From assembly GCF_053078305.1 (NCBI RefSeq), contig NZ_CP166879.1: a DNA stretch of 64,000 nt. The stretch is one strand, 5' to 3'. The notes beneath the pieces are model-generated. The model had not been told where the DNA came from and did no database searches. It was given only the letters and a program-made list of their open reading frames with translations. Shown in pieces: positions 1 to 60,053 of the stretch. Numbering within the stretch: position 1 is the stretch's first letter; every line of letters starts with the position of its first letter. A program made the position numbers and the translations under genes.

Positions 1-590
1 ATCACAGATCTAACCCGACAGGCATCGTGAATTAACAGACTGGAATACTCCGGTTTTACTTGGAAGTAAGGTGCCCGTTCAAAATGCGCCGGACGAACAA
101 CAGGCTCACGTACCAACAGGGCTCTTCGTGATTTCCTACCGGAGCGCTCAAATGCCTTTTCAGTATAGAGATCTGTAAGTAAAACCGCCCGAACCCGCAC
201 AGCACTATAAGGTAATATTTGAGCCAGTACTTCTCCCCACAAAGCCTCATATATTGCATGAACAGCGCCGAGTGCACCATTAGAATGACGTTCGTCAGTA
301 CCTTCGCCAACCAACGGATTACTTCCTATTCCTTTAACCTGGTAGTTACCATCAAACCCACAACGTGCACCACCTCCATTACGCTGAATACCACTGCCAC
401 CATAGCGCTCTGCATGGAACACTTTGGCAGAAGCTGTACTGCCAGGATCGATAATATAACTGCAGGCATTTTGCAGCTCGTCTGGATTTCTGACATCCTC
501 TGCACACCAGATTAATGAGGCCTTGATCTGCCTGGCAGTGAAAGGCACCAGGTTTTCATTCAGTTCAGAAAGTGAACACTGATGACTCAT
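1..590 (-). CDS. mchC: Microcin H47 maturation protein MchC-like, N-terminal part (gene continues past window start)
   Basis: Open frame on minus strand from ATG at 590-588 (MSHQCSLSELNENLVPF...) with no stop to window edge; GGAG Shine-Dalgarno upstream; lies immediately downstream of mchI-mchB as in the H47 cluster. Absent from the ORF track because it is edge-truncated. Identity is by position only. Confidence 0.5.
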   Translation of the reverse strand, partial: MSHQCSLSELNENLVPFTARQIKASLIWCAEDVRNPDELQNACSYIIDPGSTASAKVFHAERYGGSGIQRNGGGARCGFDGNYQVKGIGSNPLVGEGTDERHSNGALGAVHAIYEALWGEVLAQILPYSAVRVRAVLLTDLYTEKAFERSGRKSRRALLVREPVVRPAHFERAPYFQVKPEYSSLLIHDACRVRSV

Positions 591-614
591 CTGGCAGTAT
601 TCTCCGTTTCAATT

Positions 615-640
615 TTCATAAAAGAGTGTTCATAAAAGAG
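615..640. repeat. Tandem direct repeat ttcataaaagag x2 (2-bp spacer) between mchB and mchC
   Basis: Read directly: ttcataaaagag tg ttcataaaagag. Confidence 0.7.
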
Positions 641-861
641 CAAGTAAGTGTCCTGACAGCTTCTTCCTTATTACAGTAAAACTCTATTAATTACACATAA
701 ATTAAAAAATTATTTATCAACGACTGTAAATCATATCTTCATCAGTAAAGTGTTGAACATAAAAACACACTTATAAATGGATCTTCTATCTGTTTTAAAC
801 AAAAAGGATATATTTTACAGGTACTACCGAAAAAGTGCCTGTAAAATAAATAAAAATATAA

Positions 862-1089
862 TTAGCTACCGCCACCAGCAGAAGAACTGGCACTACCACT
901 TCCCACGGTCGAGCCAATTGCTGTTGTCAAACCGGCAGATACGGCTCCAACTACAACCCCAAGTGGACCACCAGGTATTCCGGCGAGAGCTCCAACAATA
1001 GCTGCAGCACCTGCAGCATTAGCTGAAGTAGCTGGCGCACCTCCCGCCCCGGAAATATATCTTAACTGTGATTCTGTTATTTCTCGCAT
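862..1089 (-). CDS. mchB: Microcin H47 precursor (class IIb siderophore-microcin)
   Basis: 75 aa, MREITESQLRYISGAGGA double-glycine-type leader followed by Gly/Ala-rich core and Ser-rich C-terminus; matches my recollection of MchB. Confidence 0.9.
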   Translation of the reverse strand: MREITESQLRYISGAGGAPATSANAAGAAAIVGALAGIPGGPLGVVVGAVSAGLTTAIGSTVGSGSASSSAGGGS

Positions 1090-1116
1090 ATAAACTGCAT
1101 ATAAACTCCATCATAT

Positions 1117-1326
1117 TTAACTTCCGTTTTTCCAGCCTGACCAGACCAGAATCCTTCGAATCCCATGAATCAGCTCAATAAAACCAAGAAATATTATAAA
1201 GCTTAGAAAAACGTCAACATAAGAATTCCCTTCGCCAACAATCCGAAGGGATGAAAGTGAAACCAATAAGATAGTAATAGGTAAACTGAATATAGCCGTC
1301 AATTGGGACAGTTTTTTATAACTCAT
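1117..1326 (-). CDS. mchI: Microcin H47 immunity protein
   Basis: 69-aa hydrophobic membrane peptide immediately upstream of mchB on the same strand. Confidence 0.85.
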   Translation of the reverse strand: MSYKKLSQLTAIFSLPITILLVSLSSLRIVGEGNSYVDVFLSFIIFLGFIELIHGIRRILVWSGWKNGS

Positions 1327-1738
1327 TAATCCCTACCTGTTGCTTTATTTTCATTATGAAAAGTTACCAAATCTTAGCACCTCAGTCAGGAGAGTCAGGT
1401 CATCGATAAAGAATATTCCAGTAGAGTGGCGCTCATGATCAAAGATAACAGCAAAGTTGATGACAGCGCTGACCGACTGTCATTTACAGAAACCCTGTTT
1501 GTAGCACATTCCATCTTACCTGACCTCACCCAGACAAAGACAAAAGAGAATGATTGTTATTTACTTTTCAAAAAAAAGTGTCATATTGTCCATATAAAGT
1601 CAAGAGGTATTTTACGTTATGTCACTGATGCAATTGTTAGTCAGGATCTCATGGTTGTCGCTCATGTATAACCTGAGACTTGAACGCACACTAATAGCAC
1701 TGACGGTCATACATCGGGAAATGTGAGGAGGCATAAGA

Positions 1739-1984
1739 ATGAATTGTGATAATAATCACAGAAATGAAGAATTCATTGTTACCTTTGATAAAGGCAACAA
1801 GCAAGACAATTCAAGACGAAAACACGATAATTTTCCTATAGAGGTAGAATCCTCCGTAGAGCAGGAGACACACTGTATCACAAATAATAAGTCGGCTTCC
1901 GGTATAGTAACACATGACTATGATGCCGATTATATTTGTGGTTGTGGTGAAATTATGTGTCCTGGTTGCGGTCATGACCTATAA
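1739..1984 (+). CDS. Hypothetical small protein with C-terminal Cys cluster (CGCGEIMCPGCGH)
   Basis: 81-aa ORF preceded by AGGAGG Shine-Dalgarno; AT-rich like the neighbouring microcin genes; no double-glycine leader. Confidence 0.4.
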   Translation: MNCDNNHRNEEFIVTFDKGNKQDNSRRKHDNFPIEVESSVEQETHCITNNKSASGIVTHDYDADYICGCGEIMCPGCGHDL

Positions 1985-2139
1985 CAAACATTTTTGCAAA
2001 CTGATACCTGATCAGGTACAAGCCTGTTGATTATTATGCTGAATATTTCATGTTATAAAACCATCGATATAAACATTAACAAGAAAAAACATATATTGTT
2101 TATCTGAACATTTATCGATGGAAAACCAAAGGGGAAAGT

Positions 2140-2574
2140 ATGTATCTTACGAAAAAGATTATAATAAGTATGATGTTTATATTACCATCTGCTGCATTTT
2201 CATCAGATCCACCTCCCCTTCAACAATCGTTAGAAAAAACAACCTATTTTTCTATAGGTATGAATGGGTTTATAGGCTATCAGAGCGAAGGGGAAAAATT
2301 ATACACACACATTCTTACATTAGATAATCCCGAAGAGATATTTAAAAATATAATAAAAAATAGAAAGTCAACTAAGGAGTCTAAAATTTATGCTGCTTGT
2401 GGGCTATATTATTTAAACGTAGAAAATATAGAGTCATTGTTTAATGAAAATGATAAACAAGAATATGTGTCTGTCTTAAGAGGGGATATTTTAACAAAAA
2501 TAAAACTGAATGATATTCTGAATTCTGTGATAATAAATGGTTGCAACACCAAATTAATATCTGAACATAAATGA
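2140..2574 (+). CDS. mchS3: Putative microcin I47 immunity protein (MchS3-like)
   Basis: 144 aa with N-terminal hydrophobic segment; 16 bp upstream of the I47 precursor gene (immunity-before-structural gene arrangement). Confidence 0.55.
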   Translation: MYLTKKIIISMMFILPSAAFSSDPPPLQQSLEKTTYFSIGMNGFIGYQSEGEKLYTHILTLDNPEEIFKNIIKNRKSTKESKIYAACGLYYLNVENIESLFNENDKQEYVSVLRGDILTKIKLNDILNSVIINGCNTKLISEHK

Positions 2575-2590
2575 GCAGGAGGTCTTTAAA

Positions 2591-2824
2591 ATGAGAGAAA
2601 TATCAGATCACATGCTTGATTTCGTGAAAGGAGGGATGAATCTTAATGGATTACCTAGTTCTACTAATGTAATAGATCTACGAGGAAAAGATATGGGAAC
2701 ATATATTGATGCTAATGGAGCATGCTGGGCTCCGGGTACTCCATCCATCATCATGTATCCGGGGGGAAGTGGACCTTCTTATAGTATGAGTAGTTCCACA
2801 TCCAGTGCAAACAGCGGCAGTTAA
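2591..2824 (+). CDS. mchS2: Microcin I47 precursor (MchS2)
   Basis: 77 aa; MREISDHMLDFVKGG leader (GG cleavage motif), Ser-rich C-terminus SSSTSSANSGS typical of siderophore-microcins; GGAGG Shine-Dalgarno. Confidence 0.8.
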   Translation: MREISDHMLDFVKGGMNLNGLPSSTNVIDLRGKDMGTYIDANGACWAPGTPSIIMYPGGSGPSYSMSSSTSSANSGS

Positions 2825-2830
2825 ATAAAT

Positions 2831-2858
2831 ACCCTCCGGCATGGCCGGAGGGTATTTA
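2831..2858 (+). terminator. Rho-independent terminator after mchS2
   Basis: Stem accctccggc / gccggagggt with 3-nt loop followed by T-rich tract. Confidence 0.5.
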
Positions 2859-3112
2859 TGATGTGCCTGTAAGACTCTACTTCTGTCGTCTCTTTACAAA
2901 GGCATATGATCTGTCATTTTGTACCAGACATCTTAACGAGAGCCTTTTCATATATTACTTACATACGTGAAATCTACAGTATAAAGCAAAAATTTTATTA
3001 AACCTGTTTTATATTTATCATCAATACAACAGATTTAATTCCGGAAAGTCACTCATCATCCCTTGAATGAACGTCATTTGATGTATTATTCTTACACTTG
3101 GATTAATTTAAG

Positions 3113-4387
3113 ATGATACCTATGAAAAACTATCTTTTCCAGACACCCGAAGATATTTGTGTACAGTTAAAAAAAATGACACATCCTGTCACAATAAGAA
3201 CAACAGATATTGCTAATTTCTGGCACTATCTTGAGTCAGCAACACTTCCAGTGATCACAAAAAGCACCACTACAGAAAATCGGGAGGTTACATTTCTGTG
3301 GCGCTCAGAGAAAGCACTGCAAGGCGTATATCTTCGCCTGAATCGTGTAACAGATAAAAAAGACGTCAAAAAAGGACTAATGACTCATATCCCTTCGACA
3401 GATATCTGGATGCTGACACTGGTGTTACCAGCTTCATATCGGGGCTCATACTCATTTATAGAAATTCCCACAGATATGACACAAAAAGACATATTTCAAC
3501 TAGGAAGTCGCTTCTCTCCATTACCCGGTAAATCTGATCCATTTAACAAAACAGCAGAAATAAATATACGAGGATTCGGAGAATCAGTCCTTTCTCTTGA
3601 TATGGCTCCTGAACAAAAGGAATGGGATGATACTTCCCATAAATGTACAGGTATTCTTTCAACATTACATTCCTTTGTTGCAGGATATCAACGCCGGATT
3701 CGTTTATATTTTCCCCTGAATCCAACATCAGTACCTCTTGGATTACTTGTGTTACCTGATGCTGAAACATGGTTTGACCGGATAGATATTACCCGGGCAT
3801 TAGATATGGCCATCACCACTGGTCGTATCACGCCAATGGCAATTATGGGGATAGACAATATTAATGAATCTGATCGTATGAATATACTGGGAGGCAATAA
3901 AGAACTCATCTTTGATATAGCGGAAAATCTGATACCCCAGTTATACAGAGACTATCCGGATATCGTATGGGCTGGTCGCTCTAATACTGTACTGGCCGGG
4001 CAGAGCCTCGGTGGAGTGACAGCACTGATGGCAGCTATATATGCGTCGACAACATTTGGTACAATCATTAGTCACTCACCTTCAATGTGGTGGAACCCTG
4101 ACCAGGGCAGCCCGATCTTGTTTACTGAGAATAATACCTCCTGGGTAAGTGAGCAGATACTTTCAGCGCCTCCGAAAGATGTAAATATTCGACTTGGAGT
4201 CGGTTCTTTAGAAGGTACAACCGTCTCACATGTTCAGCGATTGCATCATTCGTTAATCGCAGCTGGTTTGGAAAGTAACCTCACTGTCTATACCGGTGGT
4301 CACGATTATGCTTGGTGGCGCGGAGCAATTATTGATGAATTAGCAAATTATAATTGCAGGAAGGTATCAAATAATAACTCTGTGTAA
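3113..4387 (+). CDS. mchS1: Enterobactin/salmochelin esterase (Fes/IroD-like), MchS1-type
   Basis: 424 aa with GQSLGG serine-hydrolase motif; sits between microcin genes and the IroB-like glycosyltransferase. Confidence 0.75.
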   Translation: MIPMKNYLFQTPEDICVQLKKMTHPVTIRTTDIANFWHYLESATLPVITKSTTTENREVTFLWRSEKALQGVYLRLNRVTDKKDVKKGLMTHIPSTDIWMLTLVLPASYRGSYSFIEIPTDMTQKDIFQLGSRFSPLPGKSDPFNKTAEINIRGFGESVLSLDMAPEQKEWDDTSHKCTGILSTLHSFVAGYQRRIRLYFPLNPTSVPLGLLVLPDAETWFDRIDITRALDMAITTGRITPMAIMGIDNINESDRMNILGGNKELIFDIAENLIPQLYRDYPDIVWAGRSNTVLAGQSLGGVTALMAAIYASTTFGTIISHSPSMWWNPDQGSPILFTENNTSWVSEQILSAPPKDVNIRLGVGSLEGTTVSHVQRLHHSLIAAGLESNLTVYTGGHDYAWWRGAIIDELANYNCRKVSNNNSV

Positions 4388-4456
4388 AATATCTTTTTAT
4401 CGTCCGATAACTCTTTCTGCAATATTATTATGGGAGACTATCTCATTTATTTAGTG

Positions 4457-4485
4457 ATGTCCTTCATTTATGTGATGAAGGACAT
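4457..4485. terminator. Hairpin between convergent mchS1 and mchA
   Basis: Inverted repeat atgtccttcat / atgaaggacat with 7-nt loop. Confidence 0.45.
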
Positions 4486-4528
4486 TATATTACTCATAAC
4501 ATTTCTCGTTGAAAATTTCAGCAATACG

Positions 4529-5653
4529 CTACAATTGTTTCCCGTTGTTTTTTAATTTTCTCATCAAAACCTCTGCAATCTCTGCAGGACTGGGTTGTTC
4601 AGCCATTTCAGCGGCTACCTGATCTGAACAGAAGCGTAGTGAATCATCATAAAGCAGGCGATTTACCAAATCACTAGTCAGTCCATGCTTGTCCGGAATA
4701 ATCCCACACCCACGCTTCGCAACAATTTCTGCATTAACAGAGCGATCTGCACCTTCGCCAAACACAATCTGTGGTATTCCACTATACAGCGCTGTCAGGG
4801 TATTACCTGCGCCACCGTGATGAATAAATCCATCAGCTCCATTAAGGAATACACCCATAGGTATCCAGTCAACCAGACGTACATTTGATGGTAGTTTTCG
4901 TAAACCAGTACGAGCATTTATTGCAAGTTGCAAAATGATATCAGCATCAACTTCATTTGCAGAATCCATAACCCATGAAATCAGCTCCAGACCATCAACC
5001 ATTGGTTTTACAGTGCCAAGGCTGATAAGTAAACGTTTCCGATCAGAATCCCTGTCCCACCATGTTTCCTTTACAGCACCTCCGTTATAAGGAATATATC
5101 TCATTGAGATAACCGGTTCTCCAGCATTTTTAAGAATGCTCATACTTGGGGGAGCAACATCAATCCATGCTAAATCACATAGTGGACCGCTGACTCCATG
5201 CCGCCTGTAAGCATTGCTTAAAGAACGGTTTAACATCTGAATATGGGCAGATGTATGCGCGAATCCAACAGCCAGCATCACTGAAGGAATTCTATATTTA
5301 GCAGCAACCAATGGGCCTGCCGGACCAAGAGGGGGATAGACTATTAAATCTGGCCTCCATTTTCCTGCAAAATTGATGAGGTTATCTGCCATTTCATCGC
5401 TAAAAAAAGAGAAATGACCAATAATATTACTTTTTTTCCTCAACTCTTCCTGATGGCGATATCCAGCCTCTGAATCTAAACCTGGAACTGCATCAAAAAC
5501 AACCAGTCCAGCTTCTGCTGCTTTATTCGCGAATTTGCCAGCGCTACTAATTACTACATCATGTCCAATTACACGAAAGGCCTGAGCCAGAGAAATCAAT
5601 GGGTATAACAAACCGTACAGCGGTGGGCCAATAAAAAGAATACGTTTTCGCAT
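4529..5653 (-). CDS. mchA: IroB-like glycosyltransferase (enterobactin C-glucosyltransferase), MchA
   Basis: 374 aa with GT1 glycosyltransferase-like features (N-terminal MRKRILFIGPP..., C-terminal HHGGAGNT motif). Confidence 0.8.
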   Translation of the reverse strand: MRKRILFIGPPLYGLLYPLISLAQAFRVIGHDVVISSAGKFANKAAEAGLVVFDAVPGLDSEAGYRHQEELRKKSNIIGHFSFFSDEMADNLINFAGKWRPDLIVYPPLGPAGPLVAAKYRIPSVMLAVGFAHTSAHIQMLNRSLSNAYRRHGVSGPLCDLAWIDVAPPSMSILKNAGEPVISMRYIPYNGGAVKETWWDRDSDRKRLLISLGTVKPMVDGLELISWVMDSANEVDADIILQLAINARTGLRKLPSNVRLVDWIPMGVFLNGADGFIHHGGAGNTLTALYSGIPQIVFGEGADRSVNAEIVAKRGCGIIPDKHGLTSDLVNRLLYDDSLRFCSDQVAAEMAEQPSPAEIAEVLMRKLKNNGKQL

Positions 5654-6367
5654 TAAAAAAGTCCGTCTTCTGCTTACCTGTTTATTTTTCTATCTCTAAG
5701 AAAACATAATTAATATTATTTTTATGTGAGCTTATGCACAAAAATAACCAAGTATATTATCTTCTGGTAGAGATACAGGATACAGTTTGTAGGAGCTTTC
5801 TTTTTTGAACAATGATTTGCAGGACAGTTATGCTAAACTAGCGGAATCAGTATCACAACAATAAATGACTGTTCATACCTGAAATTTGAATTAACAGGCA
5901 TCATGAATGTCAATAGTCTAAGCGGTGACTACTTATATCGCTTGCATAAATACTAAACACTGACTAGAAAAGTATTGGATAACCCCGTCACTAAAAGTAA
6001 CGCTTCGGTTATTTGCTCGGAATGTATTAACGCCAAGATTGTTAGCCGTTACGCCTTATATCACTGGCGCTGACAAATGTTTCTTTTCTAATTTACTGAA
6101 CCGGCGCAGACACGCAGGAAAGCACGCCGGCACCGGTGTAATGCCAGTTCTAATCAATAAGAATGGAATGACGAATCAGTCAGGAAGGGATAACAACCCG
6201 CTGCTGAACGGAAGGTATCAGCAGGAAGATGAACGGGAATATCGCCAGCACCAAGGGCAGGGCCGGGTTCCACAATACCAGCGCTGGCATTTTGCACATT
6301 GCCAGCGTACCGGCATTACAACACGTTTCATGCTGCTGCCCCCAGGATTCCTCGATTCGTTGCTACA

Positions 6368-6405
6368 TCCACTGCTCTACTTCACTTCCACTGCTCCACT
6401 TCACT
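6368..6405. repeat. Tandem 19-bp direct repeat (1 mismatch) spanning the alpA copy-1 stop codon
   Basis: tccactgctctacttcact / tccactgctccacttcact read directly. Confidence 0.75.
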
Positions 6406-6579
6406 TTTGTACCAGCGGCTGCTGCGCCCCAGTTTGATGGGTTTAGGGAAATGGCCTTCACTGATCAACTTGTAAAACCATTTGTCGGTCATACCGGTGA
6501 AACTGGTGATATAGTTCATGTCGATCAGGGAATTATCGGCACGCAGAAATACGCTGTCGTGGCTTGTTGTAGTCAACAT
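6382..6579 (-). CDS. alpA: AlpA-family (phage Vis/AlpA) transcriptional regulator, copy 1
   Basis: 65 aa; ...MTDKWFYKLISEGHFPKPIKLGRSSRWYKSEVEQWK matches the AlpA family signature. Confidence 0.8.
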   Translation of the reverse strand: MLTTTSHDSVFLRADNSLIDMNYITSFTGMTDKWFYKLISEGHFPKPIKLGRSSRWYKSEVEQWK

Positions 6580-16176: not shown

Positions 16177-16295
16177 ACACTCTGCCAGGGGAAATGCCTG
16201 ATTACATTGCGTTAACCAACTGAAAACATGACACAAACCCCTCATCCCCCTCCTGTTTCTCTTGCGTGACCGCTCTGCTGTCAATAGAATAAAAC

Positions 16296-16331
16296 GATCG
16301 ATAAAACAGGTATCGATCGTTACTATCGATC
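16296..16331 (+). promoter_or_regulatory. Ag43 phase-variation switch: three closely spaced GATC (Dam) sites in the OxyR-binding region
   Basis: GATC at 16296, 16315 and 16328, about 220-250 bp upstream of the flu start. Confidence 0.7.
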
Positions 16332-16548
16332 GTTTATAGTGGTTAATGGTCTGCGAAAAGGCAGCTGAATCTCTTCATCATGCAGAACGGAATTGCACAC
16401 AACGGACTGATACTTCTCTGGCGGATGAGAGAGGGGAAGCATTTATGTCCGGGAAAAACCACTTTATCTGACCATGCTGTTTTGTACCTGCCGGTATCCA
16501 CATTTGTGGGTACCGGCTTTTTTATTCACCCTCTGTAAGGAAAAGCTG

Positions 16549-19500
16549 ATGAAACGACATCTGAACACCAGCTACAGGCTGGTATGGAATCACATTACGG
16601 GCACCCTGGTGGTGGCCTCCGAACTGGCCCGCTCACGGGGAAAACGCGCCGGTGTGGCGGTTGCGCTGTCTCTTGCTGCTGTCACATCAGTCCCGGCACT
16701 GGCTGCTGACACGGTTGTACAGGCGGGAGAAACCGTGAACGACGGAACACTGACAAATCATGACAACCAGATTGTCTTCGGTACGGCCAACGGAATGACC
16801 ATCAGTACCGGGCTGGAACTGGGGCCGGACAGTGAAGAAAACACCGGTGGGCAATGGATACAGAATGGCGGGATAGCCGGAAACACCACTGTCACCACAA
16901 ATGGTCGTCAGGTCGTGCTGGAGGGGGGAACAGCCAGTGATACGGTTATTCGTGACGGCGGGGGACAGAGCCTGAACGGGCTGGCGGTGAACACCACGCT
17001 GAATAACAGAGGCGAGCAGTGGGTTCATGAGGGCGGGGTTGCCACCGGTACAATTATCAACCGCGACGGTTACCAGAGCGTTAAAAGTGGCGGGCTGGCA
17101 ACAGGAACCATCATCAACACCGGCGCAGAAGGCGGCCCGGATTCTGACAACTCGTACACGGGTCAGAAGGTCCAGGGAACAGCAGAATCCACCACCATCA
17201 ACAAAAATGGACGGCAGATTATCTTATTTTCCGGGATAGCCCGTGACACTCTCATTTACGCAGGTGGTGACCAGTCGGTACACGGAAGGGCCCTGAATAC
17301 CACACTGAATGGCGGTTACCAGTATGTGCACAAGGACGGACTTGCGCTGAACACGGTAATTAACGAGGGGGGCTGGCAGGTTGTTAAGGCAGGTGGTGCT
17401 GTCGGTAACACCACCATAAATCAGAACGGTGAACTGAGGGTACATGCCGGCGGGGAAGCCACTGCAGTCACCCAGAACACGGGCGGTGCACTGGTTACCA
17501 GTACGGCTGCAACCGTTACCGGCATAAACCGCCTTGGAGCATTCTCGGTTGTGGAGGGTAAAGCTGATAATGTCGTACTGGAAAATGGCGGACGCCTGGA
17601 TGTGCTGACCGGACACACAGCCACTAATACCCGCGTGGATGATGGCGGAACGCTGGATGTCCGCAACGGTGGTACCGCCACCACCGTATCCATGGGAAAT
17701 GGCGGTGTACTGCTGGCCGATTCCGGTGCCGCTGTCAGTGGTACACGGAGCGACGGAAAGGCATTCAGTATCGGAGGCGGTCAGGCGGATGCCCTGATGC
17801 TGGAAAAAGGCAGTTCATTCACGCTGAACGTCGGTGATACGGCCACGGATACCACGGTAAATGGCGGACTGTTCACCGCCAGGGGCGGCACACTGGCGGG
17901 CACCACCACGCTGAATAACGGCGCCATACTTACCCTTTCCGGGAAGACGGTGAACAACAATACCCTGACCATCCGTGAAGGCGATGCACTCCTGCAGGGA
18001 GGCTCTCTCACCGGTAACGGCAGCGTGGAAAAATCAGGAAGTGGCACACTCACTGTCAGCAACACCACACTCACCCAGAAAGCCGTCAACCTGAATGAAG
18101 GCACGCTGACGCTGAACGACAGTACCGTCACCACGGATGTCATTGCTCAGCGCGGTACAGCCCTGAAGCTGACCGGCAGCACTGTGCTGAACGGTGCCAT
18201 TGACCCCACGAATGTCACTCTCGCCTCCGGTGCCACCTGGAATATCCCTGATAACGCCACGGTGCAGTCGGTGGTGGATGACCTCAGCCATGCCGGACAG
18301 ATTCATTTCACCTCCACCCGCACAGGGAAGTTCGTACCGGCAACCCTGAAAGTGAAAAACCTGAACGGGCAGAATGGCACCATCAGCCTGCGTGTACGCC
18401 CGGATATGGCACAGAGCAATGCTGACAGACTGGTCATTGACGGCGGCAGGGCAACCGGAAAAACCATCCTGAACCTGGTGAACGCCGGCAACAGTGCGTC
18501 GGGGCTGGCGACCAGCGGTAAGGGTATTCAGGTGGTGGAAGCCATTAACGGTGCCACCACGGAGGAAGGGGCCTTTGTCCAGGGGAACAGGCTGCAGGCC
18601 GGGGCCTTTAACTACTCCCTCAACCGGGACAGTGATGAGAGCTGGTATCTGCGCAGTGAAAATGCTTATCGTGCAGAAGTCCCCCTGTATGCCTCCATGC
18701 TGACACAGGCAATGGACTATGACCGGATTCTGGCAGGCTCCCGCAGCCATCAGACCGGTGTAAATGGTGAAAACAACAGCGTCCGTCTCAGCATTCAGGG
18801 CGGCCATCTCGGTCACGATAACAACGGCGGTATTGTCCGTGGGGCCACGCCGGAAAGCAGCGGCAGCTATGGCTTCGTCCGTCTTGAGGGTGACCTGCTC
18901 AGAACAGAGGTCGCCGGTATGTCTCTGACGACAGGGGTGTATGGTGCTGCAGGCCATTCTTCCGTTGATGTTAAGGATGATGACAGCTCCCGTGCCGGCA
19001 CGGTCCGGGATGATGCCGGCAGCCTGGGCGGATACCTGAATCTGATACACAACGCCTCCGGACTGTGGGCTGACATTGTGGCCCAGGGAACCCGCCACAG
19101 CATGAAAGCCTCATCGGACAATCACGACTTCCGCGCACGGGGCCGGGGCTGGCTGGGCTCACTGGAAACCGGTCTGCCCTTCAGTATCACTGACAACCTG
19201 ATGCTGGAGCCACAACTGCAGTACACCTGGCAGGGACTTTCCCTGGATGACGGTAAGGACAACGCCGGTTATGTGAAGTTCGGGCATGGCAGTGCACAAC
19301 ATGTGCGTGCCGGATTTCGTCTGGGCAGCCACAACGATATGAACTTTGGTAAAGGCACCTCATCCCGTGACACCCTGCGCGGCAGTGCCAAACACAGTGT
19401 GCGTGAACTGCCGGTGAACTGGTGGGTACAGCCTTCTGTTATCCGCACCTTCAGTTCCCGGGGGGACATGAGCATGGGTACAGCCGCAGCCGGCAGTAAC

Positions 19501-28913: not shown

Positions 28914-29236
28914 AACTGACTGTTTCACCATTAGCAGAACACGATCTTGAAGCTATAGGTGACTGGATCGCTCAGGATAATCCTGTCCGTGCAATCAGTT
29001 TTACCGAAGAGCTTTACCAACAATGTCTGTTGATAGCCGAATCGCCAGTACTCTACAGAGAAAGACCCGAATTAGGGGCTGGGATCAGAGGTTGTTCGTA
29101 TGGTCGTTACCTTCTGCTGTTCAGGGTACTGGATACTGAAGTTCGTATCGAACGTATCGTTCATGGTTCCCGGGATATCAACAGGGTACTTGCAGAGCCA
29201 GACGACAAACCATCAGATCATTTCTGGCAGCCATAA
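28910..29236 (+). CDS. parE: ParE/RelE-family type II toxin
   Basis: 108 aa; start overlaps parD stop by 4 nt (ATGA). Confidence 0.75.
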   Translation: MKLTVSPLAEHDLEAIGDWIAQDNPVRAISFTEELYQQCLLIAESPVLYRERPELGAGIRGCSYGRYLLLFRVLDTEVRIERIVHGSRDINRVLAEPDDKPSDHFWQP

Positions 29237-29483
29237 ACAAAATCTGTGCGTTAACGCTCCCTAACACAGGTAGCCAGGTATTTTATAAATCTCTGTATTT
29301 TGTTGTTACTTCGATTCCGCAATTCAGCATATCGAACCAGACAAAATGATTACAGCAAAGCACAAAAAAGAGGGATTATAGCGTCAAAAGAATTCGAATT
29401 GCACATGGGGGCCTCATTGGTGGCCTCGAAAACAACAAAGACAAAACAATCAATACAAAACAATTGGTTATATAACCAGTTTC

Positions 29484-29502
29484 ATTCCGAGTCCGGGCAC
29501 CA
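29484..29502 (+). repeat. tRNA-Phe 3'-end remnant (island att site / direct repeat)
   Basis: attccgagtccgggcacca equals the last 19 nt of E. coli tRNA-Phe including CCA; the upstream tRNA body is absent. Confidence 0.75.
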
Positions 29503-29512
29503 AATTCATATA

Positions 29513-29538
29513 AACGGACCTCCACGGAGGTCCGTTTT
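29513..29538 (+). terminator. Native pheU rho-independent terminator
   Basis: cggacctcc ... ggaggtccg stem followed by TTTTT. Confidence 0.6.
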
Positions 29539-30118
29539 TCGTTTCAGGACGCCACGATTTAAGCGTTCTGCCTCCAAATCAATTCTACCGATCTCAACCA
29601 GATTCTCCCCACATCACCAGTAATTTGCGGGCATATCCCAATTCGGGAAAATTAGTTCCTGAGCTATAGCACTGACTGACGTGAAATGTCGTGCGGCCCC
29701 GTGATGCTGTTGAACGTCAAATGACGTCATCAGGAGCGTAACGCATCCATAAAGCACAACACCGGTCTGAACGGCGACTGATGAGATTTTCTGAATGAGA
29801 ACAAAGAGAAATGTATCAGTCCGCTTGCTCATGCAAAGACTAACAATCCATTAAAATAGTAAGCGCTCCGGACAATTTTCCATGGATTATTTTCTGAACA
29901 TTTTTCTTTGGCAAAGATGATGAATTTTGATGGTAAGGAATATTACTTCTGGTTCTCAGTAAAATCCTTTCGTAATACCATGTAATCAAGAAGTTTATGG
30001 CTGGTAAAAATAACGTCTTGCATTCACCAATAATATGTAAATAAACCCATCTATAGATGGTAAAAATAGGTTGTGGCAATTATCATTGCATCATTCCCTT
30101 TTCGAATGAGTTTCTATT

Positions 30119-31657
30119 ATGCAACAACCTGTAGTTCGCGTTGGCGAATGGCTTGTTACTCCGTCCATAAACCAAATTAGCCGCAATGGGCGTCAACTTA
30201 CCCTTGAGCCGAGATTAATCGACCTTCTGGTTTTCTTTGCTCAACACAGTGGCGAAGTACTTAGCAGGGATGAACTTATCGATAATGTCTGGAAGAGAAG
30301 TATTGTCACCAATCACGTTGTGACACAGAGTATCTCAGAACTACGTAAGTCATTAAAAGATAATGATGAAGATAGTCCTGTCTATATCGCTACTGTACCA
30401 AAGCGCGGCTATAAATTAATGGTGCCGGTTATCTGGTACAGCGAAGAAGAGGGAGAGGAAATAATGCTATCTTCGCCTCCCCCTATACCAGAGGCGGTTC
30501 CTGCCACAGATTCTCCCTCCCACAGTCTTAACATTCAAAACACCGCAACGCCACCTGAACAATCCCCAGTTAAAAGCAAACGATTCACTACCTTTTGGGT
30601 ATGGTTTTTTTTCCTGTTGTCCTTAGGTATCTGTGTAGCACTGGTAGCGTTTTCAAGTCTTGATACACGTCTTCCGATGAGCAAATCGCGTATTTTGCTC
30701 AATCCACGCGATATTGACATTAATATGGTAAATAAAAGTTGTAACAGCTGGAGTTCCCCGTATCAGCTCTCTTACGCGATAGGCGTGGGTGATTTGGTGG
30801 CGACATCACTTAACACCTTCTCCACCTTTATGGTGCATGACAAAATCAACTACAACATTGATGAACCGAGCAGTTCCGGTAAAACATTATCTATTGCGTT
30901 TGTTAATCAGCGCCAATACCGTGCTCAACAATGCTTTATGTCGATAAAATTAGTAGACAATGCAGATGGTTCAACCATGCTGGATAAACGTTATGTCATC
31001 ACTAACGGTAATCAGCTGGCGATTCAAAATGATTTACTGGAGAGTTTATCAAAAGCGTTAAACCAACCGTGGCCACAACGAATGCAGGAGACGCTCCAGC
31101 AAATTTTGCCTCATCGTGGTGCGTTATTAACTAATTTTTATCAGGCACATGATTATTTACTGCATGGCGATGATAAATCATTGAACCGTGCCAGTGAATT
31201 ATTAGGTGAGATTGTTCAATCATCCCCAGAATTTACCTACGCGAGAGCAGAAAAAGCATTAGTTGATATCGTGCGCCATTCTCAACATCCTTTAGATGAA
31301 AAACAATTAGCAGCACTGAACACAGAAATAGATAACATTGTTACACTACCGGAATTGAATAACCTGTCCATTATATATCAAATAAAAGCGGTCAGTGCTC
31401 TGGTAAAAGGTAAAACAGATGAGTCTTACCAGGCGATAAATACTGGCATTGATCTTGAAATGTCCTGGCTAAATTATGTATTGCTTGGCAAGGTTTATGA
31501 AATGAAGGGGATGAACCGGGAAGCAGCTGATGCATATCTCACCGCCTTTAATTTACGCCCAGGGGCAAACACCCTTTACTGGATTGAAAATGGTATATTC
31601 CAGACTTCTGTTCCTTATGTTGTACCTTATCTCGACAAATTTCTCGCTTCAGAATAA
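30119..31657 (+). CDS. cadC: CadC, membrane-integrated transcriptional activator of cadBA
   Basis: 512 aa MQQPVVRVGEWLVTPSINQISRNGRQLTLEPRLIDLLVFF... Confidence 0.95.
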   Translation: MQQPVVRVGEWLVTPSINQISRNGRQLTLEPRLIDLLVFFAQHSGEVLSRDELIDNVWKRSIVTNHVVTQSISELRKSLKDNDEDSPVYIATVPKRGYKLMVPVIWYSEEEGEEIMLSSPPPIPEAVPATDSPSHSLNIQNTATPPEQSPVKSKRFTTFWVWFFFLLSLGICVALVAFSSLDTRLPMSKSRILLNPRDIDINMVNKSCNSWSSPYQLSYAIGVGDLVATSLNTFSTFMVHDKINYNIDEPSSSGKTLSIAFVNQRQYRAQQCFMSIKLVDNADGSTMLDKRYVITNGNQLAIQNDLLESLSKALNQPWPQRMQETLQQILPHRGALLTNFYQAHDYLLHGDDKSLNRASELLGEIVQSSPEFTYARAEKALVDIVRHSQHPLDEKQLAALNTEIDNIVTLPELNNLSIIYQIKAVSALVKGKTDESYQAINTGIDLEMSWLNYVLLGKVYEMKGMNREAADAYLTAFNLRPGANTLYWIENGIFQTSVPYVVPYLDKFLASE

Positions 31658-58782: not shown

Positions 58783-59874
58783 ATGCGTTTTCTGCGCCGA
58801 CCAATATCGCTGCGCCAACGGCTGATATTGACCATCGGGGCCATTTTGTTGGTGTTTGAGCTGATCAGCGTCTTCTGGCTATGGCATGAAAGTACCGAGC
58901 AGATTCAGCTGTTTGAGCAGGCGCTACGCGACAATCGCAACAACGATCGCCACATCATGCGTGAGATCCGCGAGGCGGTCGCCAGCCTGATTGTCCCCGG
59001 CGTCTTTATGGTCAGCCTGACGCTATTTATCTGCTATCAGGCGGTACGCCGCATCACCCGCCCGCTGGCGGAGCTGCAAAAAGAGCTGGAAGCGCGCACC
59101 GCCGACAACTTAACGCCCATTGCCATTCACAGCGCCACCCTCGAAATCGAAGCGGTGGTTTCGGCGTTGAACGATCTGGTCAGTCGCCTGACCAGCACGC
59201 TGGATAACGAAAGGTTGTTTACCGCTGACGTCGCGCACGAACTGCGAACGCCACTGGCGGGGGTGCGTTTGCATCTGGAACTGCTGGAGAAAACGCATCA
59301 CATTGATGTAGCACCGTTAGTGGCACGGCTTGATCAGATGATGGAGAGCGTCTCCCAGCTGCTGCAACTGGCGCGTGCCGGACAGTCATTTTCTTCCGGT
59401 AATTATCAACATGTAAAACTGCTGGAAGATGTCATTCTCCCCTCGTATGACGAACTCAGTACCATGCTCGACCAGCGCCAGCAAACCCTGCTATTGCCAG
59501 AGAGCGCCGCCGACATCACCGTTCAGGGTGATGCAACCCTGCTGCGGATGTTATTGCGAAACCTGGTAGAAAACGCCCATCGTTACAGCCCGCAAGGCAG
59601 CAACATTATGATTAAGCTGCAAGAAGATGGCGGAGCGGTCATGGCAGTTGAAGATGAAGGACCAGGTATTGATGAGAGTAAATGCGGGGAGTTGAGTAAA
59701 GCGTTTGTACGAATGGACAGCCGTTATGGCGGGATTGGTCTGGGGTTAAGTATTGTCAGCCGCATTACACAGTTGCATCACGGGCAGTTTTTCCTGCAAA
59801 ACCGGCAAGAGACTTCTGGCACGCGCGCCTGGATACGGCTGAAGAAAGATCAGTACGTGGCAAACCAGATATAA
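58783..59874 (+). CDS. basS: Sensor kinase BasS (PmrB)
   Basis: 363 aa from MRFLRRPISLRQRLILTIGAILLVFELISVFWLWHES... (TTG at 58774 is an alternative start). Confidence 0.9.
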   Translation: MRFLRRPISLRQRLILTIGAILLVFELISVFWLWHESTEQIQLFEQALRDNRNNDRHIMREIREAVASLIVPGVFMVSLTLFICYQAVRRITRPLAELQKELEARTADNLTPIAIHSATLEIEAVVSALNDLVSRLTSTLDNERLFTADVAHELRTPLAGVRLHLELLEKTHHIDVAPLVARLDQMMESVSQLLQLARAGQSFSSGNYQHVKLLEDVILPSYDELSTMLDQRQQTLLLPESAADITVQGDATLLRMLLRNLVENAHRYSPQGSNIMIKLQEDGGAVMAVEDEGPGIDESKCGELSKAFVRMDSRYGGIGLGLSIVSRITQLHHGQFFLQNRQETSGTRAWIRLKKDQYVANQI

Positions 59875-59939
59875 AGAAAGCTGCTGACCACCAGCACGCT
59901 GAACACGGTAGTTAAACTTTCATAAACACGGTTTTTCAT
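59850..59939 (-). CDS. pmrR: Small membrane peptide PmrR
   Basis: 29 aa MKNRVYESLTTVFSVLVVSSFLYIWFATY with GGAGGAGAG Shine-Dalgarno; 3' end overlaps the basS 3' end antisense; found by manual translation. Confidence 0.8.
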   Translation of the reverse strand: MKNRVYESLTTVFSVLVVSSFLYIWFATY

Positions 59940-59941
59940 TG

Positions 59942-59968
59942 CACTCTCCTCCGTTAACCTGGAGGAGA
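59942..59968. terminator. Hairpin between basS and proP (also contains the pmrR Shine-Dalgarno)
   Basis: ctctcctcc gttaacc tggaggagag inverted repeat. Confidence 0.5.
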
Positions 59969-60053
59969 GTATGCGCGTCAGAGATTAAGTGAACCTTAAG
60001 AGTTCAATTGTTGGTCTGATAAGACAGCGTCACATCAGGCCATCCGTTTCAGC

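What the first reader, a model, noticed from the sequence alone, without database searches (positions are those of the whole stretch)
1..5653. Siderophore-microcin H47 / I47 cluster with two precursor-immunity pairs and enterobactin-modifying enzymes
mchB (H47) and mchS2 (I47) both have GG-type leaders and Ser-rich C-termini, and each is preceded by a small membrane immunity gene. mchA (IroB-like glycosyltransferase) and mchS1 (esterase) supply the salmochelin-type moiety; mchC starts at 590 and runs out of the window. The export genes (mchDEF) are presumably beyond the window. This is a known system but functionally notable as a competition weapon.
Basis: partly seen in the sequence, partly recalled or inferred. 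Interest (0 to 1): 0.45.

Follow-up and report, generated by a model that had tools for sequence, protein, structure and literature searches.

The report
Known microcin H47/I47 gene cluster

Summary
Confirmed. Window 1-5653 holds the mchA-proximal half of the published E. coli microcin H47 genomic island. The genes are: the first 196 codons of mchC (590..1, minus strand, open to the window edge), mchB, mchI, mchX, mchS4, mchS3, mchS2, mchS1 and mchA.

The DNA is 99.9% identical to a complete E. coli chromosome. In that genome mchC (full length), mchD, mchE and mchF follow just beyond the window edge. MchB is 100% identical to RefSeq "microcin H47". MchA is 70% identical to IroB and MchS1 is 57-58% identical to IroD. 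MchS3 passes the NCBIfam MchS3 cut-off. A published island primer (in1) matches exactly at 5785-5807.

- mchD is a maturation gene that works with mchC, not an exporter.
- MchS3 (144 aa) looks like an exported soluble protein with a signal-like N-terminus, not a small membrane peptide like MchI.
- mchX, mchS4, a Fur-box-like site, the mchS2 terminator hairpin and the attL boundary (5808-6214) were not mentioned.

About 155 of 5426 complete E. coli genomes carry at least 80% of this segment. Novelty: already known. Interest: low. Production cannot be judged from the window, because the exporter genes and the ent genes lie outside it.

The parts
1..590 (-). mchC, the first 196 codons, cut off by the window edge. 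It is the MceJ homologue and works with MchD to attach the glucosylated enterobactin derivative to the C-terminal Ser of the precursors.
   Evidence: Open frame from the ATG at 590 to base 1. The nucleotides are identical to the 5' end of the 516-aa gene next to mchB in strain 04-00955. The 271-bp gap to mchB matches the published ~270 bp (PMC6071977). No Pfam or NCBIfam hit; the function is taken from the literature (PMC7472721).
862..1089 (-). mchB, the microcin H47 precursor (75 aa). It has a 15-aa GA-type leader, a hydrophobic Gly/Ala-rich core and a Ser/Gly-rich tail ending in Ser.
   Evidence: 100% identical to RefSeq WP_001375214.1 'microcin H47'. Weak hits, below the family cut-offs, to the E492-group microcin model and the MccV model. 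The 75-aa length matches the review.
1117..1326 (-). mchI, the MccH47 immunity peptide (69 aa, two hydrophobic spans). It ends 27 nt upstream of mchB.
   Evidence: The exact sequence is named 'microcin H47 immunity protein MchI' in public sources. Hydropathy windows lie at about residues 6-26 and 39-62.
1395..1514 (-). mchX, a 39-aa regulatory ORF and the first gene of the mchX-mchI-mchB operon.
   Evidence: The exact sequence is named 'MchX protein'. It differs at 2 residues from UniProt O86199. Its role and Fur control come from PMC6071977.
1546..1564 (.). Fur-box-like site, 32-50 nt upstream of the mchX start, in the divergent mchX/mchS4 promoter region.
   Evidence: It matches 14 of 19 positions of GATAATGATAATCATTATC and is the best site in 1-6400, where shuffles give 0.48 sites of that quality. 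The literature places a functional Fur box upstream of mchX. Binding was not tested here.
1739..1984 (+). mchS4, 81 aa with a Cys-rich C-terminus (CGCGEIMCPGCG). It is reported to promote enterobactin production.
   Evidence: The exact sequence belongs to a cluster containing 'MchS4 protein Q712P8'. The function comes from Azpiroz & Lavina 2004 as quoted in PMC6071977. No family hit.
2140..2574 (+). mchS3 (= mciI), the MccI47 immunity protein, 144 aa. It has a signal-like N-terminus followed by a soluble helical domain.
   Evidence: NCBIfam NF041432 'MchS3 family', 139 bits against a cut-off of 100. AlphaFold model with pLDDT 88.6. No transmembrane span after the N-terminus in 61 homologues, and two near-invariant Cys.
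2591..2824 (+). mchS2 (= mciA), the microcin I47 precursor (77 aa). It has a GG leader, starts 16 nt after mchS3 and follows an AGGAGG ribosome-binding site.
   Evidence: The 77-aa length and the position downstream of mchS3 match the reviews. The exact sequence is found on more than 1000 public contigs, always labelled 'hypothetical'. It is 58% identical to a Serratia peptide that is likewise preceded by an MchS3 homologue. It is not annotated in the RefSeq records.
2825..2859 (+). Perfect 16-bp hairpin directly after the mchS2 stop codon; a likely terminator of the mchS3-mchS2 operon.
   Evidence: Folding energy -27.5 kcal/mol, z = -5.85, with 0 of 200 shuffles folding as well.
3113..4387 (+). 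mchS1, an IroD-type catecholate siderophore esterase (424 aa). It linearises the glucosylated enterobactin.
   Evidence: 57-58% identical to annotated IroD over 90% of its length. Pfam Enterochelin_N and Esterase domains. Related to the enterochelin esterase structures 3mga and 2b20. A GQSLG nucleophile motif is visible in the sequence.
4529..5653 (-). mchA, an IroB-type C-glycosyltransferase (374 aa). It glucosylates enterobactin.
   Evidence: 70.2% identical to annotated IroB over residues 23-368. Pfam EryCIII-like N and C domains. Related to GT-B antibiotic glycosyltransferase structures.
5785..6236 (.). The mchA-side end of the H47 genomic island. The attL repeat lies between the published primers in1 and out1.
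   Evidence: Primer in1 of PMC3191183 matches exactly at 5785-5807 (+), and out1 matches with 3 mismatches at 6215-6236 (-). In strain 04-00955 a 43-nt stretch (window 5982-6024) recurs at 84% identity 13.7 kb away, beyond mchF.

Best explanation
The segment is the mchA-proximal half of the E. coli microcin H47 genomic island, a class IIb (siderophore-) microcin system that encodes two toxins.

Shown here: the gene identities, their order and intactness, and homology to IroB, IroD and the MchS3 family.

Taken from the literature on this same system:
- Under iron limitation, Fur repression of the mchX-mchI-mchB operon is lifted.
- MchB (MccH47) and MchS2 (MccI47) are made as precursors with 15-residue double-glycine-type leaders.
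- MchA C-glucosylates host-made enterobactin, and MchS1 hydrolyses it to the linear DHBS trimer.
- MchC and MchD ester-link this moiety to the C-terminal serine of the Ser-rich tail.
- The MchF peptidase/ABC transporter, with MchE and TolC, removes the leader and exports the peptide.
- Target cells import the peptide as if it were a ferric catecholate, through FepA, Cir, Fiu or IroN with TonB.
- MchI protects the producer from MccH47 and MchS3 protects it from MccI47.
- MchS4 boosts enterobactin supply.

Inferred here: MchS3 acts as an exported soluble protein, probably in the periplasm, rather than as an integral membrane peptide.
For: - The segment is 99.9% identical over 5.9 kb to E. coli chromosomes annotated with mchB, mchI and mchS3. 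155 of 5426 complete genomes hold at least 80% of it.
- In the closest genome, mchC, mchD, mchE and mchF directly flank the part seen in the window.
- MchB is 100% identical to RefSeq microcin H47.
- The exact MchI, MchX, MchS4 and MchS3 sequences belong to public clusters that carry those names.
- MchS3 passes the curated NCBIfam cut-off.
- MchA is 70% identical to IroB. MchS1 is 57-58% identical to IroD and has enterochelin esterase domains.
- Gene lengths of 75 and 77 aa and the 271-bp mchB-mchC gap match published values.
- A Fur-box-like site lies where the literature puts one.
- Island primer in1 matches exactly.
- MccI47 activity and its immunity gene have been shown experimentally for this gene pair (PMC9542533).
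Against: - Nothing contradicts the identification.
- The limits concern function. The window ends inside mchC, so mchD, mchE and mchF cannot be seen for this strain, and neither can the ent genes.
- The Fur-box match (14/19) is not by itself beyond chance, since 0.48 such sites are expected in 6.4 kb.
- The MchS2 allele here differs at four residues from a second circulating allele. Its activity has not been shown separately.
- No public source names the mchS2 product, and I could not retrieve the reference sequence AJ009631. Its identity as MccI47 therefore rests on position, length, its partner gene and the literature description.
Confidence: 0.96

Rival explanations
1. The locus is a non-producing remnant of the microcin island. 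The genes in the window look intact, but the strain lacks a working maturation or export half, or lacks enterobactin synthesis, so no active microcin is released. Such decay is common in E. coli.
For: - 785 genomes match part of the segment, but only 155 hold at least 80% of it.
- O104:H4-type and FORC strains carry IS insertions within the segment.
- Truncated MchS2 variants that lack the Ser-rich tail circulate (P0056 and P0058).
- The literature describes degraded clusters in CA58, 536 and CFT073.
- The window ends inside mchC.
Against: - Every gene visible in the window is full length, with no IS element or frameshift.
- The first 5.9 kb differ from strain 04-00955 by one synonymous SNP and one intergenic 1-nt indel. 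That strain has full-length mchC, mchD, mchE and mchF.
Confidence: 0.15
2. The glycosyltransferase and the esterase belong to a salmochelin (iroA) siderophore locus, and the small ORFs nearby are incidental.
For: MchA and MchS1 are clear homologues of IroB and IroD.
Against: - They are only 70% and 57-58% identical to IroB and IroD.
- No iroC, iroE or iroN lies nearby.
- The small ORFs are exact matches to named microcin, immunity and regulator proteins.
- The whole arrangement equals the published H47 island.
Confidence: 0.01

Closest known systems
Microcin H47 genomic island of E. coli H47 (AJ009631), also in EAEC 042 GI-2; Azpiroz et al. 2011, Poey et al. 2006
   Same: It has the same genes in the same order and orientation: mchA, mchS1, mchS2, mchS3, mchS4, mchX, mchI, mchB, mchC. 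Product lengths are the same. Primer in1 matches exactly next to attL. The mchB-mchC spacing is the same.
   Different: - There are allelic differences: four residues in MchS2 relative to a second circulating allele, two in MchX, and one each in MchS4 and MchI relative to named entries.
- Primer out1 has 3 mismatches.
- In the closest complete genomes the far (mchF) side lacks the published in2 and out2 primer sites and carries an intact CPBP-family gene, so that flank is not of the H47-strain type.
- Here the island sits in a larger island that ends next to cadC.
MccH47/MccM cluster of E. coli Nissle 1917, CA46 and CA58
   Same: It shares mchX-mchI-mchB-mchC-mchD-mchE-mchF, and homologous glycosyltransferase and esterase genes (mcmL, mcmK).
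   Different: The window shows no mcmA or mcmI. It carries the MccI47 pair mchS3-mchS2 intact, whereas CA58 has transposases inserted between the two genes.
Microcin E492 cluster of Klebsiella pneumoniae RYC492
   Same: The logic is the same: a GG-leader precursor with a Ser-rich tail, an IroB-like MceC, an IroD-like MceD, MceI/J (= MchD/C), MceX (= MchX) with a Fur box, and the MceGH exporter.
   Different: The toxin and immunity sequences differ. There mceX is in the maturation operon, whereas here mchX heads the immunity-toxin operon.
iroA (salmochelin) locus
   Same: MchA is about 70% identical to IroB and MchS1 is about 57-58% identical to IroD. The chemistry on enterobactin is the same.
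   Different: There is no iroC, iroE or iroN, and the product is attached to a peptide rather than used as a free siderophore.

Membership tests
Class IIb (siderophore-) microcin system | Ribosomal precursor of about 75-105 aa with an N-terminal double-glycine-type (GG or GA) leader of about 15 residues | tested here: met
   The MchB leader is MREITESQLRYISGA, followed by GGAP. The MchS2 leader is MREISDHMLDFVKGG, followed by MNLNG. The cleavage positions themselves come from the literature, not from a test here.
Class IIb (siderophore-) microcin system | Ser/Gly-rich C-terminal tail ending in Ser, the site of siderophore attachment | tested here: met
   MchB ends ...GSGSASSSAGGGS and MchS2 ends ...SMSSSTSSANSGS. 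The feature is defined in PMC11634061.
Class IIb (siderophore-) microcin system | Dedicated immunity gene directly upstream of each precursor on the same strand | tested here: met
   mchI ends 27 nt before mchB, and mchS3 ends 16 nt before mchS2. MchI is named as such in public sources. MchS3 passes NF041432.
Class IIb (siderophore-) microcin system | IroB-type enterobactin C-glycosyltransferase in the cluster | tested here: met
   MchA is 70.2% identical to annotated IroB over 93% of its length and has GT-B EryCIII-like domains. Catalysis was not tested.
Class IIb (siderophore-) microcin system | IroD-type enterobactin esterase in the cluster | tested here: met
   MchS1 is 57-58% identical to annotated IroD and has Enterochelin_N and Esterase domains. 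The NCBIfam enterochelin esterase model scores 193 bits, below its equivalog cut-off of 222. It is therefore a paralogue of Fes, not Fes itself.
Class IIb (siderophore-) microcin system | MceJ/MceI-type pair (MchC/MchD) that links siderophore and peptide | tested here: inconclusive
   Only the first 196 codons of mchC are in the window. mchD is outside it. Both are present in the 99.9%-identical genome.
Class IIb (siderophore-) microcin system | Peptidase-containing ABC exporter plus HlyD-family partner (MchF/MchE) | not testable with these tools
   These genes lie beyond window base 1. They are present in strains 04-00955 and EC2 directly after mchD, but the rest of this strain's contig is not available.
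Class IIb (siderophore-) microcin system | Iron/Fur-responsive expression | tested here: inconclusive
   A 14/19 Fur-box-like site lies at 1546-1564, upstream of mchX where the literature places a functional box. The match is not significant on its own.
Class IIb (siderophore-) microcin system | Antibacterial activity and the siderophore adduct on the mature peptide | not testable with these tools
   This needs an overlay assay and mass spectrometry. Both have been shown for the reference genes in PMC9542533 and in work cited in PMC7472721.
H47 genomic island (Azpiroz et al. 2011) | The mch cluster is bounded by imperfect ~145-bp direct repeats, attL and attR | tested here: inconclusive
   The attL side is bracketed by primer in1 (exact) and out1 (3 mismatches) at 5785-6236. 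A 43-nt 84% repeat partner lies beyond mchF in strain 04-00955. The full 148-bp alignment at 76% identity was not reproduced, and attR is outside the window.
H47 genomic island (Azpiroz et al. 2011) | No integrase or excisionase gene inside the island | tested here: met
   No such ORF lies in 1-5800. An AlpA-family gene lies just outside, at 6382-6579.

The most novel reading that the evidence does not exclude
The MccI47 immunity protein MchS3 is usually described as an inner-membrane peptide. It may instead be an exported, probably disulfide-bonded, soluble helical protein. It would then neutralise its microcin in the periplasm, for example by sequestering it. It would also define a broad family: at least 96 clusters at 50% identity. 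These genes form two-gene modules with MccI47-like GG-leader peptides, and many of those modules sit outside siderophore-microcin clusters and lack the Ser-rich tail. The MccI47 toxin core would therefore predate its siderophore 'Trojan horse' tail.
Probability: 0.4. Interest if true: 0.35.

Novelty: already known. Interest (0 to 1): 0.12.

Why it matters
Siderophore-microcins are real competition weapons in the inflamed gut. MccH47 and MccI47 are being engineered into probiotics against Salmonella and carbapenem-resistant Klebsiella (PMC9542533).

For this window the value is one of annotation:
- It flags a strain that probably makes two microcins.
- It shows that standard RefSeq annotation leaves out the mchS2 toxin gene and mchX.
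- It places the island inside a larger mobile island next to cadC.

Nothing here changes what is known about the system.

Tried and rejected
- The exact-sequence look-up of MchB returned 'not in the collection', although the RefSeq protein is identical. I treat this as a database gap, not a finding.
- No public source name for MchS2 came up in the cluster list or the homologue search.
- A full-text search for MccI47 peptide strings found no paper, and nothing was in the Mortzfeld supplement. Poey 2006 is not held. A residue-by-residue comparison with the reference MchS2 was therefore not possible.
- Primers in2 and out2 of the island paper were absent, at up to 5 mismatches, from the mchF-side flanks of strains 04-00955 and EC2. 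Alignment of the two putative att regions gave only a 43-nt convincing core.
- The promoter scan was not above shuffled expectation (15 found against 18.9 expected), and the terminator scan missed the strong hairpin after mchS2.
- There were no Rfam or tRNA hits inside 1-6400.
- A Foldseek search of the MchS3 model against the PDB gave no significant match. The best E-value was 0.08, to the Prp38 N-terminal domain, which I take to be a generic helical resemblance.
- The reading as an iroA siderophore locus was rejected (see the rival explanations).


Full report

- An open frame starts at the ATG at 590 on the minus strand and runs 196 codons to base 1 (mchC).
- mchB is at 862-1089 (-), 75 aa.
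- mchI is at 1117-1326 (-), 69 aa.
- mchS3 is at 2140-2574 (+), 144 aa.
- mchS2 is at 2591-2824 (+), 77 aa.
- mchS1 is at 3113-4387 (+), 424 aa.
- mchA is at 4529-5653 (-), 374 aa.

They are mchX (1395-1514, -, 39 aa) and mchS4 (1739-1984, +, 81 aa). The region has low G+C (34-43%) against about 50% for the rest of the window, as expected for island DNA.

**Identity.**

- Window 1-5900 is 99.9% identical to the chromosome of E. coli 04-00955, and 99.7% or more to many others. 785 of 5426 complete genomes match part of it and 155 hold at least 80%.
- Over 1-5900 the only differences from 04-00955 are a synonymous SNP in mchB (position 1030) and an A8-versus-A7 tract at 1570-1577.
- In that genome the genes beyond the window edge are full-length mchC (516 aa), an acyltransferase-like gene (mchD), a HlyD-family gene (mchE) and 'microcin export peptidase/ABC transporter MchF'. 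Strain EC2 has the same arrangement.
- MchB is 100% identical to RefSeq 'microcin H47'.
- The exact MchI and MchX sequences carry those names in public sources. The exact MchS3 and MchS4 sequences sit in clusters containing Q712P9 (MchS3 family) and Q712P8 (MchS4).
- MchS3 scores 139 bits against the NCBIfam MchS3 model, whose cut-off is 100.
- MchA is 70.2% identical to annotated IroB over 93% of its length. It has the two EryCIII-like GT-B domains and many glycosyltransferase structures as relatives.
- MchS1 is 57-58% identical to annotated IroD. It has Enterochelin_N plus Esterase domains and matches the enterochelin esterase structures 3mga and 2b20.
- The product lengths of 75 and 77 aa, the mchS3-mchS2 operon order and the ~270-bp mchB-mchC gap (271 bp here) match the literature.

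**Island boundary.** The H47 system is a published 12.6-kb genomic island flanked by imperfect direct repeats of 148 and 144 bp (PMC3191183). Its primer in1 matches exactly at window 5785-5807, and out1 matches with three mismatches at 6215-6236. attL therefore lies between 5808 and 6214.

In 04-00955 a 43-nt stretch (window 5982-6024) recurs at 84% identity 13.7 kb away, beyond mchF. The full published repeat could not be reproduced, and primers in2 and out2 are absent from the mchF-side flanks of the two genomes examined. That side is outside the window.

**Regulatory signals.**

- The best Fur-box-like site in 1-6400 matches 14 of 19 positions and lies at 1546-1564, 32-50 nt upstream of mchX. 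The literature places a functional box there. The match alone is not beyond chance.
- A perfect 16-bp hairpin (-27.5 kcal/mol, z = -5.85) follows the mchS2 stop codon.
- mchS2 has an AGGAGG ribosome-binding site and begins 16 nt after mchS3.

**How it works.** This account comes from the literature on this same system. Only homology was tested here.

1. Low iron relieves Fur repression of mchX-mchI-mchB.
2. MchA glucosylates enterobactin and MchS1 linearises it.
3. MchC and MchD attach it to the C-terminal Ser of MchB and MchS2.
4. MchF, MchE and TolC cleave the leader and export the peptide.
5. Catecholate receptors and TonB import it into competitors.
6. MchI and MchS3 give specific immunity, and MchS4 promotes enterobactin supply.

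MccI47 itself was purified and shown to be active, including against carbapenem-resistant Klebsiella, in 2022. Relatives of MccI47 were described in 2024.

- mchD is a maturation gene, not an exporter.
- The MchB leader ends in Gly-Ala.
- MchS3 is not a small membrane peptide. MchI has two hydrophobic spans. MchS3 has only an N-terminal hydrophobic stretch (best 12-residue Kyte-Doolittle mean 2.25, starting at residue 7) and no later span.
- An AlphaFold model built from 61 homologues is confident (pLDDT 88.6, pTM 0.79). It shows a compact, mostly helical soluble domain after a low-confidence N-terminus.
- Of the 61 homologues, 57 keep the N-terminal hydrophobic stretch, none has a later transmembrane span, and 50 have exactly two Cys after residue 25. 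Cys87 and Cys135 are nearly invariant across the alignment.
- The fold has no significant match in the PDB.
- I infer an exported, probably periplasmic, immunity protein. This is an inference, not a demonstration.

**Alleles.** The MchS2 allele here has H7, F11, S23 and G49. It is the commoner public allele, seen on more than 1000 contigs. A second allele has N7, S11, G23 or A23, and D49. Variants with frameshifted tails also occur, for example in the O104:H4 lineage. The Serratia relative has Gly at the position equivalent to 49.

**Context.** The window is collinear with 04-00955 up to about 25.4 kb. This stretch holds AlpA-, YfjJ- and YfjI-type genes, Ag43 and CbtA/CbeA-type modules. The window then follows other strains into the core genes cadCBA, dtpC, lysS (as annotated), dcuSR, dcuB, fumB, melAB, adiA, adiY, adiC, eptA, basR-pmrB and proP. 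The island therefore ends at about 29.9 kb, next to cadC. In 04-00955 the same island abuts the kps and gsp clusters instead.

**Verdict.** The finding is real and correctly interpreted, and the system is well known. Whether this strain is a producer cannot be settled from the window, because the maturation and export half and the ent genes are not visible. The only mildly new points are the soluble-exported reading of MchS3 and the orphan MchS3-like/MccI47-like gene pairs seen elsewhere.

Noticed in passing
L004 7571-7984 and 8001-8222 (Serratia); L007 4001-4420 and 4456-4734; L009 1334-1780 and 1815-2045: MchS3-like genes are followed within 16-35 nt by MccI47-like GG/GA-leader peptides. They occur as isolated two-gene modules in housekeeping neighbourhoods, with no mchA, mchC, mchD, mchE or mchF nearby. 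The Serratia pair is 37% and 58% identical to MchS3 and MchS2. The peptides keep the YIDANGACWAPGTPS core but lack the Ser-rich siderophore-attachment tail. One further MchS3 homologue that I checked (L010) has no such small ORF after it.
   Followed up: partly
window 2140-2574: The MchS3 family is larger than its annotation suggests: 96 clusters at 50% identity with E <= 0.001. The query has no Pfam domain and no solved-structure relative.
   Followed up: partly
window 2591-2824 and 1395-1514: The RefSeq (PGAP) records of near-identical genomes do not annotate the MccI47 toxin gene mchS2 or mchX. One of them also omits mchS4. Public protein entries for MchS2 are all labelled 'hypothetical'.
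   Followed up: yes
window 6382-6579 (-): An AlpA-family (Phage_AlpA, PF05930) helix-turn-helix gene lies about 170-360 bp outside the attL region of an island that is reported to carry no recombination genes of its own (PMC3191183).
   Followed up: no
window 1570-1577: A homopolymer length difference (A8 here, A7 in two close genomes) lies 6 nt from the Fur-box-like site in the divergent mchX/mchS4 promoter region. It could be real variation or a sequencing error.
   Followed up: partly
window ~28650-30119: This is the end of the large island. From the coordinates of a collinear genome, ParD/ParE-type toxin-antitoxin genes and an integrase fragment (about 29703-29862) precede cadC, which starts at 30119. 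After that the window is core genome through to proP. No tRNA gene is found anywhere in the window.
   Followed up: partly
window 16294-16530 (+) and 16474-19671 (+): An Rfam IS102 RNA match (74.6 bits) overlaps the start of an Ag43-type autotransporter gene of 1065 aa, which has AIDA, autochaperone and autotransporter domains.
   Followed up: no
window 59843-60008 (-): Full-length Rfam match to the enterobacterial sRNA STnc630 (181.8 bits), in the core-genome part of the window.
   Followed up: no
window 862-1089 (-): The exact MchB sequence is reported as absent from the 15-billion-protein collection. Yet it is identical to a RefSeq protein that is present in many genomes. This is probably a gap in gene calling or indexing for this short, low-complexity peptide.
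   Followed up: partly
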